Assembly: GCA_009779295.1 (NCBI GenBank)
Contig: WREN01000002.1
Location: 1-38,111 of the forward strand
Source: Oscillospiraceae bacterium
GTDB taxonomy: Bacteria; Bacillota; Clostridia; Oscillospirales; CAG-272
Direction of reading: 5' to 3'
DNA length: 38,111 nucleotides
Position 1 is the stretch's first letter. Each line of letters starts with the position of its first letter. The notes beneath the pieces were generated by a model that searched no databases, was not told the DNA's origin, and saw only the letters and a list, made by a program, of their open reading frames with translations. Of the stretch, positions 11,208 to 37,313 are shown one piece after another. The position numbers were made by a program, and so were the translations under genes.

Positions 11208-11273
11208 AAACACCCGGCGCTACGGCGCCACCCTCTTTACCCGCGCCAATAAATTGGCGCTAAAGAGGGCAAG
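11208..11273 (+). repeat. Double-hairpin REP-like unit (singlet) with an inserted palindrome
   Basis: 11208-11240 matches 35252-35284 at 32/33 nt. The second hairpin CCCTCTTT..AAAGAGGG carries the insert GCGCCAATAAATTGGCGC. Confidence 0.85.
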
Positions 11274-14153: not shown

Positions 14154-14158
14154 GGAAC

Positions 14159-14300
14159 GGAATCCCCCTTGTCAAACGCCAACAAGTTGGCGATGTGACA
14201 TCCCCCCTTTAGCAAGGGGGGCAAGAAAGAGAAAGAAACGGAAATCGCAACCTCCTTGCCTCCATTGCCAAAGGGGGGTGCCCGAAGGGCGGGGGGATTC
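14159..14300. repeat. Inverted doublet of double-hairpin REP-like units
   Basis: Left GGAATCCCCC-TTGTCA..TGACA-TCCCCCCTTTAGCAAGGGGGG. Right unit inverted, ...AAAGGGGGGTGCCCGAAGGGCGGGGGGATTC. Confidence 0.85.
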
Positions 14301-26745: not shown

Positions 26746-26863
26746 GAATCCCCCCTGTCGCCTGCGGGCGACATCCCCCCTTTAACAAGGGAGGGAAAGA
26801 TAAAACGTTCCTTCCTGCCCACCCTTGCTAAAGGGGGGCTGCCGCCGCAGCGGCGGGGGGATT
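26745..26863. repeat. Inverted doublet of double-hairpin REP-like units
   Basis: GGAATCCCCCC-TGTCGCC(TGCG)GGCGACA-TCCCCCCTTTAACAAGGGAGGG ... CCCTTGCTAAAGGGGGG-CTGCCGCCGCAGCGGC-GGGGGGATT. Confidence 0.88.
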
Positions 26864-26883
26864 TATAGGAGGAATATAAACTT

Positions 26884-30663: not shown

Positions 30664-31230
30664 ATGTTACATTACAGTACAGGCGTAAACGCCCATAAAT
30701 CTTCGTTATATCAAATAGAAAATTTGCCGATCAGAATTGCCGGAGTCGTCAGGGAATCGATTGTAGACGGACCTGATCTGCGGTTCGTTGTGTTCGTGCA
30801 GGGTTGCCCGCACGATTGTCCGGGCTGCCATAATCCGGAAACTCATGATCCGGACGGCGGGCAATTAACTTCCACCGCCATCATTTGGCGTGAAATCAAT
30901 AAGAATCCGCTCGTGCAGGGGATCACGTTCAGCGGCGGCGAACCGTTCATGTGGGGACATGAACTCGCAGTCATCGGCAGGGCGGCCGCTGAGAAGAAGT
31001 TGAACATCATGACCTACACGGGTTACACATATGAGCAATTATTAATAATGGCGAAAACAGACAATTCCGTGCATGAACTGCTGTGCGTAACGAACTATTT
31101 GAAGGACGGTCCGTATGTTGAGGAGAAGCGCGATTTATCGCTGCAATTCAGGGGAAGCTCGAACCAGCGTATCTTTGACGTCACGTGCTATCCGAACAAC
31201 ACCGCCGCGAAGGAATTGAAAACGCTATGA
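30664..31230 (+). CDS. nrdG: Anaerobic ribonucleotide reductase activating enzyme (radical SAM)
   Basis: ESIVDGPDLRFVVFVQGCPHDCPGCHNP, TFSGGEP, YTGYTYE, DGPY, FRGSSNQR. Confidence 0.93.
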   Translation: MLHYSTGVNAHKSSLYQIENLPIRIAGVVRESIVDGPDLRFVVFVQGCPHDCPGCHNPETHDPDGGQLTSTAIIWREINKNPLVQGITFSGGEPFMWGHELAVIGRAAAEKKLNIMTYTGYTYEQLLIMAKTDNSVHELLCVTNYLKDGPYVEEKRDLSLQFRGSSNQRIFDVTCYPNNTAAKELKTL

Positions 31231-31643
31231 ATAACGACAATCTAACACCCGAACAAAAAGAACAGGCGTTACAGGAGTTTAACGCCAAGAAAGAGAAACA
31301 ATTCGAAATAGGTAAAGTAATCATTATTTGCGTGGTGATTTCGGACATTTTGATGTCGGCTTTATCTGCAATTGTTAATTTGAACATTGGGATATTGATT
31401 ATGTCAATCGTGTTTTCTGTCATGCTCTTCACGGGCAATCCTGTCATAAGATATGTTTTCGCCGCGAAATCGCTTGTGAATATCGGCGTTATTTTCTACG
31501 TCCTGACTTCACCGGAAATCATCGTGCCGACATGGGGGATCGTTGTTTTGATGACGCAATTGGCGTACTGCATAGCCGCGAGCGTGCTGCTGGTCGTGAG
31601 CCAATGCGTGAGCGAATATATGTATAATAAGAAGAATGGGTAA
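31227..31643 (+). CDS. Hypothetical membrane protein (~4 TM)
   Basis: ATG 31227 overlaps the nrdG stop. Four hydrophobic stretches. Confidence 0.7.
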   Translation: MNNDNLTPEQKEQALQEFNAKKEKQFEIGKVIIICVVISDILMSALSAIVNLNIGILIMSIVFSVMLFTGNPVIRYVFAAKSLVNIGVIFYVLTSPEIIVPTWGIVVLMTQLAYCIAASVLLVVSQCVSEYMYNKKNG

Positions 31644-31660
31644 GAACGGAATCCAAAAAA

Positions 31661-31705
31661 AAATTCCCCTCCTTGGAGGGGGTGGCGCAACGCGCCGGGG
31701 TGGTT
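31661..31705 (-). repeat. REP-like unit, left flank of DUF559 gene
   Basis: Reverse complement is AACCACCCC-GGCGC(GTT)GCGCC-ACCCCCTCCAAGGAGGGGAATTT, an inverted copy of 32102-32143. Confidence 0.9.
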
Positions 31706-31747
31706 TTGATGCGATAATTTGAATGTATAATTGGAAAAGGTGAACAA

Positions 31748-32158
31748 ATGCGCAACAGTAAATCCTATTTCACGCTTCCTTTCAACCCCCATCTGCGTGA
31801 ACGCGCCAGAGAACTGCGTAAAGCCGGATATTTATGCGAAGTATTATTGTGGAAGCAACTTCATAATAATAAATTCAAACAATACGATTTCGACCGTCAA
31901 AAAATTATAGGTGATTATATCGTTGATTTTTTTTGTGGGAATTGTAATGTTGTTATAGAAATCGACGGGAAGTCCCATGATAAGAAAGTTTCATATGATA
32001 AGATACGAGATTGTTATCTTGAAGGATTGGGATTAATTGTTATTCATATTCCGGCGATGGATATTTTGAATGATTTGAATAGTGTAATGTCAATGCTTCA
32101 CAACCACCCCGCCCTTCGGGCACCCCTCCAAGGAGGGGAATTTGAACGGGCAGAGTAA
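31748..32158 (+). CDS. DUF559 / Vsr-like endonuclease domain protein
   Basis: LRERARELRK..EVLLWKQL, FDRQKIIGDYIVDF, VIEIDGKSH, RDCYLEGLGLIVIHI. AT-rich. SD AAGGTG. Confidence 0.9.
   Translation: MRNSKSYFTLPFNPHLRERARELRKAGYLCEVLLWKQLHNNKFKQYDFDRQKIIGDYIVDFFCGNCNVVIEIDGKSHDKKVSYDKIRDCYLEGLGLIVIHIPAMDILNDLNSVMSMLHNHPALRAPLQGGEFERAE
32102..32143 (+). repeat. REP-like unit, right flank of DUF559 gene (inside its 3' end)
   Basis: AACCACCCC-GCCC(TTC)GGGC-ACCCCTCCAAGGAGGGGAATTT. Confidence 0.9.
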
Positions 32159-32307
32159 ACGAAAAATGAAATTCAATTATACAGAGGTGAATAAAATGAA
32201 AGACGAATATACCGCAGAAGATTTCGCAAAAGCTGTCAAAAATCCGTTTTTTCATTATGAGCCGCTGTTTAACGGATTATGCCAAAAAACTACAGGAAAG
32301 TGAATGA
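32159..32307 (+). pseudogene. Remnant of a BrnT/BrnA-like toxin-antitoxin pair
   Basis: TKNEIQLYRGE* (toxin-like C-terminus), then SD GAGGTG and ATG 32196 MKDEYTAEDFAKAVKNPFFH. A shifted frame gives IMSRCLTDYAKKLQESE*, consistent with an internal deletion. Confidence 0.5.
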
Positions 32308-34969: not shown

Positions 34970-35253
34970 ACCCATTCTACCAAGAAGTCTACGGTATCGT
35001 AGAGCAAATCCCGCGCGGGAAAGTTATCTCCTACGGGCAGATCGCCCGTATGCTGGGACGACCGCATGCAGCCCGAGAGGTCGGACGCGCCATGCACCAC
35101 TGCCCTGAACATCTCCCTTGGCAGCGGGTCGTCATGGCGGACGGTAATATCACAGCCGGCACGTTTGCGGATGAACGCAAGGAATTGCTTGAAGCAGAAG
35201 GAGTGGCGTTTCTGCCTGACGGGCGTGTGGATATGGAAGTTTGTAGGATATAA
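34966..35253 (+). CDS. Alkyltransferase-like (ATL/YbaZ) protein
   Basis: QIPRGKVISYGQIA, AREVG, LPWQRVV (Trp replaces the MGMT catalytic Cys), LLEAEGV. Confidence 0.9.
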   Translation: MNPFYQEVYGIVEQIPRGKVISYGQIARMLGRPHAAREVGRAMHHCPEHLPWQRVVMADGNITAGTFADERKELLEAEGVAFLPDGRVDMEVCRI

Positions 35254-35364
35254 ACACCCGGCGCTGCGGCGCCACCCTCTTTACGAAAGAGGACAAGGAT
35301 AAGAACGAACCAATTCCCAGCCCTCTTTTGTAAAGAGGGTACCGCCCGTAGGCGGGGGGTGTTT
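35252..35364. repeat. Inverted doublet of double-hairpin REP-like units
   Basis: AAACACCC-GGCGC(TGCG)GCGCC-ACCCTCTTTACGAAAGAGG ... CCCTCTTTTGTAAAGAGGG-T-ACCGCCCGTAGGCGG-GGGGTGTTT. Confidence 0.9.
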
Positions 35365-36906: not shown

Positions 36907-37302
36907 GGAACTAAGCTGTGCAATCGCGTGATAGTTGATCGAAAGATTTTATCATGAGGAAAGTCCGGGCTTCGCAGGGCAGGATAACGGATAACGTCCG
37001 CCGAAGGCAACTTCAGGGAGAGTGCAACAGAAATAAACCGCCGTATTATTAAGATGTGGCAAGGATGGAAAGGCGAGGTAAGAGCTCACCCCGCGCTCTG
37101 GCGACTTAGCGCGGCTGTAAACCCTATCCGAAGCAACACCCACTTGGGATTTGTTTGCCCGACGTATAATCCCACGGGTGGCACGAACGCAGCGGCAACG
37201 CTGCGTCCAGATAGATGATTGCAGTCGAAAATGCTTCGCATTATCGACCTGAAAATGCTCCGCATTTTCGGAACACAGAACCCGGCTTACAGGCTTAATT
37301 CC
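36907..37302 (+). ncRNA. rnpB: RNase P RNA (type A)
   Basis: GAGGAAAGTCCGGGCT, AGTGCAACAGAAA, GGTAAGAGC, TAAACCC, AGATAGATGATTGC, ACAGAACCCGGCTTA. The 5' GGAACTAAGC pairs with the 3' GCTTAATTCC (P1). Confidence 0.96.
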
Positions 37303-37313
37303 ACCAAAACTTA

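What the first reader, a model, noticed from the sequence alone, without database searches (positions are those of the whole stretch)
31661..32158. DUF559 endonuclease bracketed by inverted copies of a dispersed hairpin repeat: candidate REP/REPIN-like system with a non-RAYT enzyme
Seen: an AT-rich DUF559 gene sits between two GC-rich inverted units (31661-31705 and 32102-32143). They share AACCACCCC and CCCCTCCAAGGAGGGGAATTT exactly, while the hairpin between these blocks differs in sequence but still pairs. The right unit lies inside the ORF and encodes NHPALRAPLQGGEF. Units of the same architecture occur without any gene at six other intergenic loci. CCCCGCCCTTCGGGCACCCC is shared between the right flank and the reverse strand of the 14159-14300 doublet. 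Established: RAYT (TnpA-REP, HUH) genes are flanked by inverted REPs, and REP doublets (REPINs) are dispersed in genomes; DUF559 is a Vsr-like, restriction-endonuclease-fold nuclease of unclear function. Inference: DUF559 recognises or nicks these hairpins and spreads or maintains them, making this the autonomous member of a little-characterised selfish or domesticated repeat system.
Basis: partly seen in the sequence, partly recalled or inferred. Interest (0 to 1): 0.9.

Follow-up and report, generated by a model that had tools for sequence, protein, structure and literature searches.

The report
Nuclease gene framed by hairpin repeats
A small nuclease gene of unknown function (DUF559) sits between two mirror-image copies of a hairpin repeat that is scattered through this and related gut-bacterial genomes, and comparison of genomes suggests that gene and repeats form one selfish DNA element of a kind not yet described.

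Summary
A 136-aa DUF559 gene (31748-32158) lies between inverted double-hairpin units (31661-31705, 32102-32143). The right unit encodes the protein's C-terminal tail. The assembly holds about 128 such half-units in three families, mostly as 100-150-bp inverted doublets.

- **Own genome:** the three intact DUF559 genes rank 1, 3 and 6 of 1609 ORFs for flanking inverted repeats.
- **Other genomes:** 23 of 41 DUF559 genes exceed the 99th percentile of that score, against 0 of 64 neighbouring ORFs.
- **Held-out genomes:** a covariance model of the unit hits 15 of 17 genomes with a standalone DUF559 and 7 of 125 without. Hits show no link to Y1 (RAYT/IS200) transposases.
- **Co-variation and transfer:** protein clades match repeat families, and cassettes have moved between bacterial families.

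Best reading (about 0.5): a REPIN/MITE-like selfish element whose own enzyme is a Vsr-like (EDxHD) nuclease. Cleavage, binding and mobility are untested, and no empty site or target duplication was found. A rival is that the gene merely homes into pre-existing repeats. I found no paper describing the association. Four other repeat loci lie in the window, not six.

The parts
31661..31705 (-). Left double-hairpin unit (family A). Read on the - strand it runs C-rich tail, variable hairpin 2, conserved hairpin 1. Its outer end is the left boundary of the cassette.
   Evidence: Covariance model R3 gives 38.0 bits, E 4.9e-07.
31748..32158 (+). DUF559 gene, 136 aa: a Vsr-like / EDxHD-type PD-(D/E)xK nuclease domain (residues 16-116). 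Residues about 119-132 are encoded by the right unit.
   Evidence: Invariant E71, D73, H77, D84 and R87 in 18 aligned relatives. Model pLDDT 86.8; nearest folds 3hrl and I-Bth0305I. 818 homologs at E <= 1e-10.
32102..32143 (+). Right double-hairpin unit (family A), inverted copy of the left unit. It lies inside the 3' end of the ORF, and its outer end is the right boundary of the cassette.
   Evidence: R3 gives 39.8 bits, E 2e-07. The peptide it encodes is nearly invariant in 25 fetched homologs.
11208..11270 (+). Gene-less single unit of family C, with a small palindrome nested in the loop of hairpin 1.
   Evidence: R3 gives 52.5 bits, E 2.8e-10. Sequence.
14161..14299 (.). Gene-less inverted doublet of family B (tails outward). 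Its right half carries the same hairpin 2 as the right flank of the DUF559 gene.
   Evidence: Single-strand fold -40.9 kcal/mol, z -6.4.
26746..26864 (.). Gene-less inverted doublet of family B (sub-type B1).
   Evidence: Fold z -7.3. 34 BLAST matches in the own genome.
35252..35364 (.). Gene-less inverted doublet of family C.
   Evidence: Fold z -7.7.

Best explanation
The DUF559 gene and the double-hairpin units are parts of one family of selfish palindromic elements. A full-length copy is a roughly 480-bp cassette: unit, nuclease gene, inverted unit. The 100-150-bp gene-less doublets scattered through intergenic DNA are non-autonomous relatives that keep only the cis sites.

Inferred steps, none shown: the small Vsr-like (EDxHD-type) nuclease recognises its own family of units. 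It probably does so as a dimer on the two-fold symmetric doublet, or on the four-way junction the doublet forms when extruded or single-stranded, and cuts there. The break is then repaired by copying from another repeat copy, with the repeat arms serving as homology (homing-like), or the cut piece is re-inserted elsewhere with host repair functions. Either route would multiply cassettes and doublets within a genome and let cassettes establish after horizontal transfer.

Shown here: the anatomy, the genome-wide dispersal, the enrichment around DUF559 genes, the genome-level co-occurrence, the co-variation of protein clade and unit family, horizontal transfer, and conservation of the catalytic motif.
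For: (1) Own genome: 4 of 4 DUF559 matches carry a unit next to them, and 3 of 3 intact genes have inverted units on both sides. Their flanking-inverted-repeat scores rank 1, 3 and 6 of 1609 ORFs of 100 aa or more.

(2) Other genomes: 23 of 41 DUF559 genes with both flanks available reach the 99th percentile of the own-genome ORF scores, against 0 of 64 neighbouring ORFs in the same loci. Of 53 loci, 47 have a model hit within 200 nt of the domain. For close relatives of the window's gene in named genomes the figure is 7 of 7, including one Bacteroidota genome.

(3) Dispersal: pattern search finds 25 + 77 + 26 half-units of three families. Most form doublets: 30 short B, 11 short A and about a dozen C.

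(4) Genome-level co-occurrence in 149 held-out genomes, none used for training: model hits in 15 of 17 genomes with a standalone DUF559, 0 of 7 with only weak or large-protein matches, and 7 of 125 without (odds ratio 134). In the 40 nearer relatives the figures are 13 of 13 against 5 of 27, but that model was partly trained on those genomes.

(5) No link to Y1 transposases: 11 of 22 unit-bearing genomes and 77 of 128 others have one. The own genome's two Y1 matches lie on contigs without any unit.

(6) Co-variation: protein clades carry their own unit families. A Mantel test gives r = 0.57, with 0 of 2000 permutations as high. Within this genome the two family-B genes each match one of two doublet sub-types at the inner ends of the spacer.

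(7) Mobility of the gene: 91% protein identity between genomes of different families, while a housekeeping neighbour is 66-70% identical within the family.

(8) Protein: the E-x-D-G-x-x-H...D-x-x-R motif is invariant in 18 of 18 aligned sequences. The nearest folds are 3hrl and the catalytic domain of the homing endonuclease I-Bth0305I. Its abstract describes that enzyme as homodimeric with a pseudopalindromic core site (PMC3239194, abstract read).

(9) Doublets fold as four-way junctions with z -6.4 to -7.7. Hairpin-2 loops are strictly polar: 94 of 126 begin with T on the C-rich strand, and the reverse complements of the four commonest loop types occur 0 times.
Against: No binding, cleavage or transposition was tested. 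I found no filled/empty pair, excision joint or target-site duplication.

Among held-out genomes, 7 of 22 with units have no DUF559 match; one of them has 22 hits at 99% completeness. Conversely, 2 of 17 genomes with DUF559 have no hit.

Family C (26 or more half-units) has no DUF559 in this assembly, which is only 72% complete.

The short doublets of family A have their tails outward, while the family-A cassette has its tails inward. They are therefore not simple internal deletions of the cassette.

A glyoxalase-family gene, not a nuclease, also sits inside one family-B doublet.

From my own knowledge, PD-(D/E)xK nucleases hydrolyse DNA and are not known to carry out strand transfer, so spread to new sites needs further, unknown steps.

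Co-variation of gene and flanking units follows from physical linkage alone. The covariance model only sees families resembling those it was trained on. Related genomes are not independent samples. Counts are floors, because only 150 or 43 candidates per genome were scored.
Confidence: 0.5

Rival explanations
1. DUF559 is a free-standing homing endonuclease gene that merely parasitises pre-existing REP-like doublets. It cuts gene-less doublets and is copied into them by repair, with the repeat arms serving as homology. The doublets themselves are spread by some other enzyme or process.
For: In family B the gene sits exactly where a doublet has its 19-39-nt spacer. The inner ends of the cassettes match the spacer ends of two doublet sub-types. 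The fold is closest to an EDxHD homing endonuclease domain. Units occur without DUF559 in 7 of 22 unit-bearing held-out genomes, while DUF559 seldom occurs without units (2 of 17). That asymmetry is what a parasite of the repeats would show. The genes are multi-copy and horizontally mobile.
Against: No other candidate enzyme tracks the units: there is no link to Y1 transposases. In the own genome only DUF559 genes, one glyoxalase-family gene and two much longer ORFs (752 and 963 aa, score 38) stand in the top six flanking-repeat scores. The commonest geometry (22 loci with it on both sides, 12 more on the 3' side) has tails inward. The matching gene-less 'empty' form is absent among the 12 family-A pairs of this genome. 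It appears only once, as a 26-nt-sided joint, in metagenome contigs.
Confidence: 0.25
2. The units are ordinary structural or regulatory intergenic hairpins (terminators, mRNA stabilisers, insulators). A mobile and possibly toxic nuclease gene carries them or lands beside them. The association reflects linkage and shared horizontal transfer, not an enzyme-substrate relation.
For: The 3' unit lies at or over the stop codon in the coding orientation in 36 of 53 loci, the place of a terminator or 3' stabiliser. Units lie mostly between genes. Physical linkage alone yields co-variation.
Against: Units lack the T-run of intrinsic terminators (read). Doublets also lie between divergent genes (7 loci) as often as between convergent ones (7 loci). 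Units were not detected (E <= 0.01) in 118 of 125 DUF559-free held-out genomes of the same class, which is odd for a general regulatory device. There are three sequence families of one architecture, sub-type matching, and strictly inverted pairing around the gene.
Confidence: 0.12
3. The inverted units mark an invertible segment, so that the DUF559 gene is switched by programmed inversion.
For: 'DUF559 domain-containing protein' is listed as enriched (odds ratio 14.3) among predicted programmed-inversion targets in PMC9881135 (Table 1 in section 27, read). One arm lies inside the ORF.
Against: No recombinase is nearby. The four neighbouring ORFs on the two sides have either no Pfam family or radical-SAM and AIR-synthase-type domains. 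Inversion of the whole cassette would change neither the ORF nor its own upstream region. The same units form dozens of gene-less doublets. No inverted joint was seen in the contigs laid.
Confidence: 0.03

Closest known systems
REP / REPIN sequences with RAYT (HUH Y1) transposases
   Same: Short G+C-rich palindromic units dispersed in intergenic DNA, mostly as inverted doublets. An enzyme gene is flanked by inverted copies of the same units. Unit families are matched to enzyme clades.
   Different: The enzyme is a roughly 120-136-aa PD-(D/E)xK (Vsr-like) nuclease, not an HUH tyrosine transposase. Units are double hairpins with a variable inner hairpin. The genes are multi-copy (4 in this 72%-complete assembly) and horizontally mobile, whereas RAYTs are described as single-copy and vertically inherited (abstracts listed). 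Units show no association with Y1 genes.
EDxHD homing endonucleases (I-Bth0305I, PDB 3r3p)
   Same: The catalytic fold (TM 0.72-0.73 on the target) and the E-D-x-H-D residues. A selfish-gene lifestyle and a symmetric target are plausible.
   Different: I-Bth0305I is multidomain and lies in a group I intron of a phage recA gene (abstract). The window's protein is a single domain and free-standing. It is framed by dispersed repeats in intergenic DNA and has no intron or intein context.
Vsr very-short-patch repair endonuclease (PDB 1cw0, 1vsr)
   Same: Same superfamily fold (TM 0.46 on the target).
   Different: There is no Pfam Vsr match at E <= 0.01 and no cytosine methyltransferase next to the gene. 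Nothing in Vsr biology involves flanking repeats.
MITEs and their parent insertion sequences
   Same: Full-length copies with a gene and short gene-less copies share terminal inverted repeats. In family B the short copies look like the cassette without its gene.
   Different: There is no DDE or other known transposase. No target-site duplication was seen. Family-A short copies are arranged inside-out relative to the cassette.
NGO0050-type DUF559 proteins (PDB 3hrl, structural-genomics entry)
   Same: Closest solved relative by sequence (E 2.4e-14) and by fold (TM 0.80 on the target).
   Different: No function is attached to that entry. Its genomic context was not examined here.

Membership tests
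DUF559 (Pfam PF04480) | Match to the family profile above the curated cut-off | tested here: met
   E 5.6e-26, 91 bits against a cut-off of 20.6, residues 16-116.
EDxHD homing endonuclease family | Conserved E, D, H, D catalytic residues on a Vsr-like fold | tested here: met
   E71, D73, H77 and D84 are invariant in 18 of 18 aligned sequences. Fold match to 3r3p, probability 1.00, TM 0.72-0.73 on the target.
EDxHD homing endonuclease family | Residence in a self-splicing intron or intein, with a multidomain DNA-binding architecture | tested here: not met
   The ORF is free-standing, 136 aa and intergenic, with a single domain. Rfam reports no intron in the window. The defining feature is taken from the abstract of PMC3239194.
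EDxHD homing endonuclease family | Site-specific double-strand cleavage of an allele lacking the gene | not testable with these tools
   This needs enzyme assays.
Vsr mismatch endonuclease | Match to the Vsr profile and partnership with a cytosine-5 methyltransferase | tested here: not met
   Only PF04480 and a sub-threshold PF18741 match at E <= 0.01. The neighbours carry radical-SAM and AIR-synthase-type domains or no family.
REP/REPIN-RAYT system | Dispersed palindromic units, mostly as inverted doublets in intergenic DNA | tested here: met
   128 half-units by pattern search. Doublets: 30 short B, 11 A, about 12 C. 97 model hits in the own genome.
REP/REPIN-RAYT system | Units flank an HUH Y1 (RAYT) transposase gene | tested here: not met
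   The Y1 matches on contigs C25 and C6 have no unit on their contigs. Across 150 genomes there is no association (11 of 22 against 77 of 128).
REP/REPIN-RAYT system | Enzyme gene single-copy and vertically inherited | tested here: not met
   4 copies in this assembly. 91% identity across bacterial families, against 66-70% for a housekeeping neighbour within the family. The defining feature is taken from abstracts listed.
MITE / insertion sequence | Terminal inverted repeats shared by gene-bearing and gene-less copies | tested here: met
MITE / insertion sequence | Target-site duplication and a known transposase (DDE, HUH or serine/tyrosine recombinase) | tested here: not met
   No direct repeat outside the ends in the flanks read (by eye only). 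The only element-borne ORF is DUF559.
Programmed-inversion locus | Inverted repeats with an adjacent invertase, and both orientations present in a population | tested here: not met
   No recombinase domain in the neighbours. No strand-changing joint across the gene in four metagenome runs, which were contigs only.

The most novel reading that the evidence does not exclude
This is a new class of prokaryotic mobile element. A roughly 120-aa Vsr-like PD-(D/E)xK nuclease is the only element-encoded enzyme. It mobilises cruciform-forming (four-way-junction) double-hairpin repeats, both its own cassette and gene-less doublets, within genomes and between bacterial families and even phyla. That would give the large DUF559 family its function and add a new enzyme class to the known drivers of REP/MITE-like repeats.
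Probability: 0.35. Interest if true: 0.9.

Novelty: new variant of a known kind. Interest (0 to 1): 0.8.

Why it matters
DUF559 is a large family with no assigned function. In the samples searched here it is common in this class of bacteria: 52 of 300 genomes. The window's subfamily alone has 818 homologs at E <= 1e-10.

If the nuclease acts on the repeats that frame it, three things follow:
- The family gets a function.
- A second, mechanistically different solution to the REPIN/RAYT theme is defined. It lies mostly in gut Clostridia-type MAGs whose source names read Oscillospiraceae, Lachnospiraceae and Defluviitaleaceae, with one relative in Bacteroidota.
- The G+C-rich peptide tails and many short contig ends seen around these genes in metagenome assemblies are explained.

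The units are also sequence-specific, structure-forming sites paired with a very small nuclease. That makes a compact system to study protein recognition of hairpin or cruciform DNA.

Tried and rejected
- **Rfam:** no family matches the units. The window gives only RNase P at the gathering threshold, and 31600-32250 gives one chance-level hit.
- **PADLOC:** no family for the window's protein. A family-B paralog gives weak matches to methyl-directed restriction and homing endonuclease models. These show the shared fold, not a defence system.
- **First model:** the first covariance model, built from family C only, was too narrow, so I iterated to R2 and R3. MAFFT plus RNAalifold on mixed units gave a useless consensus.
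- **BLAST with a family-B doublet:** it finds that family only in the own genome, G029, G027 and one marginal hit. Sequence search therefore cannot test presence or absence across genomes.
- **A 15-mer with 37 copies:** it lies inside coding sequence and is unrelated to the units.
- **Orthologous locus:** only two relatives keep the downstream gene. One (G010) has the two flanking genes about 100 nt apart with no cassette, but it also lacks the 152-aa membrane ORF. It is therefore not a precise empty site.
- **Sequencing runs:** no RNA holder was listed. Laid contigs of four runs gave no contig that bridges an empty site. Stretches without cover are not used as evidence.
- **Target-site duplication:** none was seen, by eye only.
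- **Dimer prediction:** no result, because the machine was unreachable.
- **Supplements of papers:** not opened. The supplementary tables of PMC9881135 may list the individual DUF559 loci behind its Table 1.
- **Literature:** searches for 'DUF559' (25 papers held, 22 listed; passages read in 4), 'REPIN/RAYT/Firmicutes', 'EDxHD / Vsr-like / I-Bth0305I', and 'very short patch / miniature inverted / repetitive extragenic palindromic / selfish' found no description of DUF559 with dispersed hairpin repeats. The library lacks most subscription journals.
Full report
**What is in the window**

An ORF at 31748-32158 (+) encodes 136 aa. It matches Pfam DUF559 (PF04480) at E 5.6e-26 over residues 16-116. 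It is framed by inverted arms at 31661-31704 and 32100-32143: 44 nt, 75% complementary.

Chance would give 0.00 and 0.13 copies. Between the blocks each arm has a different small hairpin, and both pair. The right arm lies inside the ORF and encodes the tail NHPALRAPLQGGEF. The gene interior has 28-47% G+C and the arms 71%.

One detail is off. A covariance model of the unit finds gene-less units at four other loci in the window, not six: 11208-11270, 14161-14299, 26746-26864 and 35252-35364.

**Anatomy of the repeat**

The window is contig C2 of a 2.45-Mb assembly of 371 contigs, 72% complete. Pattern searches give 25, 77 and 26 half-units of three sequence families, which I call A, B and C.

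All three share one architecture (alignment). Each has a C-rich tail of 9-10 nt, a variable hairpin 2, and a conserved hairpin 1.

- **Hairpin 2.** It varies by compensatory changes, and the same variants recur in all three families.
- **Loop polarity.** Its loops are strictly polar. On the C-rich strand 94 of 126 begin with T. The reverse complements of the four commonest loop types occur 0 times in that orientation.
- **Tail.** In every family the tail repeats the C-run that begins hairpin 1.
- **Arrangement.** Most units stand as inverted doublets with tails outward: 30 short B, 11 A, about a dozen C. Spacers are 11-39 nt.
- **Folding.** As single strands the doublets fold into a four-way junction. 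The arms are a tail:tail stem, two hairpin-2 arms, and a central hairpin-1:hairpin-1 stem. z is -6.4 to -7.7, and 0 of 200 shuffles fold as well.
- **Known families.** Rfam has no family for the units.

**Association with DUF559 in this genome**

The genome has four DUF559 matches.

| Copy | Repeat family | Flanking units |
|---|---|---|
| Window gene | A | Both sides, inverted |
| C209 (truncated; 80% identical over the 85 aligned residues) | A | Left unit only |
| C161 | B | Both sides; the gene replaces the spacer of a doublet (gap 405 nt) |
| C162 | B | Both sides; the gene replaces the spacer of a doublet (gap 370 nt) |

These arrangements are read.

I scored every ORF of 100 aa or more for a local inverted repeat between its two flanks. 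Among 1609 ORFs the 99th percentile is 31. The three intact DUF559 genes score 112, 56 and 37, which are ranks 1, 3 and 6. Rank 2 is a 134-aa glyoxalase-family gene (PF00903, E 4e-4) that also sits inside a family-B doublet.

Family-B doublets split into two sub-types by the ends of their spacers, and each matches one cassette:
- The first 13 and last 9-10 nt of the C161 cassette interior equal the spacer ends of one sub-type.
- The C162 cassette shares a 5-nt start and an 8-nt end with the other sub-type.

The genome's Y1-transposase matches are an IS200/IS605-type tnpA on C25 and a weak one on C6. They lie on contigs with no unit at all.

**Other genomes**

DUF559 occurs in 14 of 41 genomes of the nearest sample (G000 included) and 52 of 300 genomes of a class-wide sample.

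- **Flanking repeats.** Of 49 loci from other genomes, 41 had both flanks. 23 of these reach the own-genome 99th percentile, against 0 of 64 neighbouring ORFs in the same loci. Eight loci were cut by contig ends, which is itself typical of repeats.
- **Model hits.** Of all 53 loci, 47 have a unit within 200 nt of the domain.
- **Commonest geometry.** This is the window's: tails next to the gene, hairpin 1 outward. It occurs on both sides in 22 loci and on the 3' side only in 12 more, often overlapping the stop codon.
- **Inverse geometry.** This is found on both sides in three loci: C161, C162 and one locus of G029.
- **Outside the class.** The gene is rare, in 7 of 300 genomes at E <= 1e-15, and 4 of 15 loci pass the score.

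**Presence and absence**

I built a covariance model in three rounds, from own-genome units and then from units of the nearest relatives.

- **Nearest relatives.** The model hits 13 of 13 genomes with DUF559 and 5 of 27 without. It was partly trained on those genomes, so this is not a clean test.
- **Held-out genomes.** In 149 class-level genomes, none used for training, it hits 15 of 17 genomes with a standalone DUF559; these 15 span 11 genera. It hits 0 of 7 genomes whose only match is weak or part of a protein over 1100 aa, and 7 of 125 genomes without any match. The odds ratio is 134, with Fisher p 1.4e-13.
- **Y1 transposases.** On the same sample these occur in 11 of 22 unit-bearing genomes and 77 of 128 others (odds ratio 0.66, p 0.48).

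Caveats: kin are not independent. The model sees only families resembling its training set. Only 43-150 candidates per genome were scored, so counts are floors.

**Co-variation and transfer**

In a tree of 48 proteins the well-supported clades each carry their own unit family. Protein identity and 3'-unit identity correlate (Mantel r = 0.57, 0 of 2000 permutations as high, 37 loci). Linkage alone can produce this, but the sub-type match with gene-less doublets goes beyond linkage.

The tree ignores host taxonomy. Proteins from different bacterial families are 88-91% identical. The housekeeping gene next to the window's cassette is only 66-70% identical within the family.

The window's protein belongs to a very divergent clade (branch length 4.96). 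It has 818 homologs at E <= 1e-10, most on contigs of 1-5 kb. In 20 of the 25 sequences I fetched, the unit-encoded tail (HPALRAPL, then G-G-E or a close variant) is better conserved than the domain, and 10 of them end right after it at 131 aa.

All 7 relatives found in named genomes have both units, with scores of 34-56. They come from Oscillospiraceae, Defluviitaleaceae and Lachnospiraceae MAGs and one Phnomibacter (Bacteroidota) chromosome at 39% identity. Flanking DNA differs from the outer end of hairpin 1 onward, which fixes the cassette ends.

**Locus history**

A same-family genome without DUF559 (G010) has the two flanking genes about 100 nt apart with no repeat. It also lacks the 152-aa membrane ORF, so it is not a precise empty site.

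In four termite-gut metagenome runs, the summed word depth over the two units is 100-1000 times that of the flanks. Many joints link the right unit's end to the left unit's start over 9-23 nt. These are tails-outward doublets from elsewhere. One 26-nt-sided joint links the units tails-inward over 23 nt. A 95%-identical strain leaves the window's sequence at 31637, just before the left unit. None of this shows excision.

**The protein**

The motif E71-x-D73-G-x-x-H77 ... D84-x-x-R87 is invariant in 18 aligned sequences. The model has pLDDT 86.8, with a low-confidence tail.

| Structure | TM on the target |
|---|---|
| 3hrl | 0.80 |
| I-Bth0305I catalytic domain | 0.72-0.73 |
| Vsr | 0.46 |

The fold comparison is, and 3hrl is also the only sequence match among solved structures. 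The abstract of the I-Bth0305I paper describes a homodimer whose highest specificity lies in a 14-bp pseudopalindrome centred on the cut (PMC3239194, abstract read).

**Reading**

The anatomy and the comparative evidence are best explained by one selfish element family. DUF559 would be the element's own nuclease, and the doublets would be gene-less relatives (confidence about 0.5). How it moves is inferred, not shown. I think the most likely route is cutting at the symmetric doublet or its junction, followed by copying between repeat copies, with unknown host help for new sites.

- **Main rival (0.25).** The gene only homes into repeats that something else spreads. The asymmetry of the presence/absence table fits this equally well.
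- **Terminator or insulator reading (0.12).** It fits the position of the 3' unit but not the distribution of the units.
- **Programmed inversion (0.03).** A published table lists DUF559 as enriched among predicted inversion targets (PMC9881135, section 27 read). That shows the inverted repeats were picked up before, without comment. I find no recombinase next to the gene.

**Comparison with what is known**

The system works like REPIN/RAYT in layout. It fails that family's defining tests: there is no HUH enzyme, it is not single-copy, and it is not vertically inherited. It shares fold and motif with EDxHD homing endonucleases but not their intron or intein context or their multidomain build.

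Four literature searches and the passages read found no description of DUF559 with dispersed hairpin repeats. The library lacks most subscription journals, and supplements were closed. From memory only, two parallels are worth checking. Very small nested mobile repeats described in cyanobacteria recall the swapping of hairpin 2. Rickettsia palindromic elements recall repeats read as protein. Neither comes from a call.

Noticed in passing
G000 contig C296:380-1008 (locus L092): A 134-aa glyoxalase-family gene (PF00903, E 4e-4) on the - strand sits inside a family-B doublet where the spacer should be (gap 527 nt). It has the second-highest flanking-inverted-repeat score of 1609 ORFs. It may be a passenger gene or two single units that happen to frame it.
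   Followed up: partly
window 11208-11270 and 35252-35364; G029 locus L007: Repeat family C (26 or more half-units in the own genome) has no DUF559 gene in this 72%-complete assembly. In G029, a genome of another family of the same order, a DUF559 gene is framed by near-identical family-C units. G029 also shares families A and B with the own genome (143 model hits), more than any same-family genome does.
   Followed up: partly
window 14177-14192, 11243-11260; many own-genome units: A small palindrome of 16-18 nt is nested inside hairpin 2 or inside the loop of hairpin 1 of some units. Hairpin-2 variants are shared among the three families, as if small modules are swapped or inserted within the units.
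   Followed up: no
own-genome units: Hairpin-2 loops are strictly strand-polar relative to the unit: the T-N-C(G) type lies on the C-rich strand, and the reverse complements of the four commonest types occur 0 times. This hints at a function of one strand as single-stranded DNA or RNA.
   Followed up: partly
window 36908-37305 (+): Bacterial RNase P RNA class A, 256 bits (Rfam RF00010).
   Followed up: no
window 31185-31643 and 32142-32303: A 152-aa ORF with hydrophobic stretches and a 53-aa ORF, both without a Pfam family, flank the cassette. Together with the cassette they are missing from the orthologous locus of G010, so the whole 1.07-kb interval may be an insertion.
   Followed up: partly
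window 31646-31660: Just left of the cassette stands an 11-nt stretch that is also found directly at the outer end of the family-B doublet at 14155-14165. It is followed by a run of A. It may be a remnant of a family-B end next to which the family-A cassette lies.
   Followed up: no
G000 contig C25:12297-13000: An IS200/IS605-type tnpA (PF01797, E 3.8e-41) is followed by a second ORF, as in tnpA-tnpB elements. No double-hairpin unit lies on this contig.
   Followed up: partly
G000, 37 sites: A 15-mer repeated 37 times lies inside coding sequences in one frame context. It is a conserved protein motif of a paralogous gene family and is not part of the repeat system.
   Followed up: partly
locus L080 (G406) and L048 (G091), L034 (G157): Next to some DUF559 genes the units form tandem arrays of 4-6 copies with a period of about 60-115 nt, rather than single units or doublets.
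   Followed up: no
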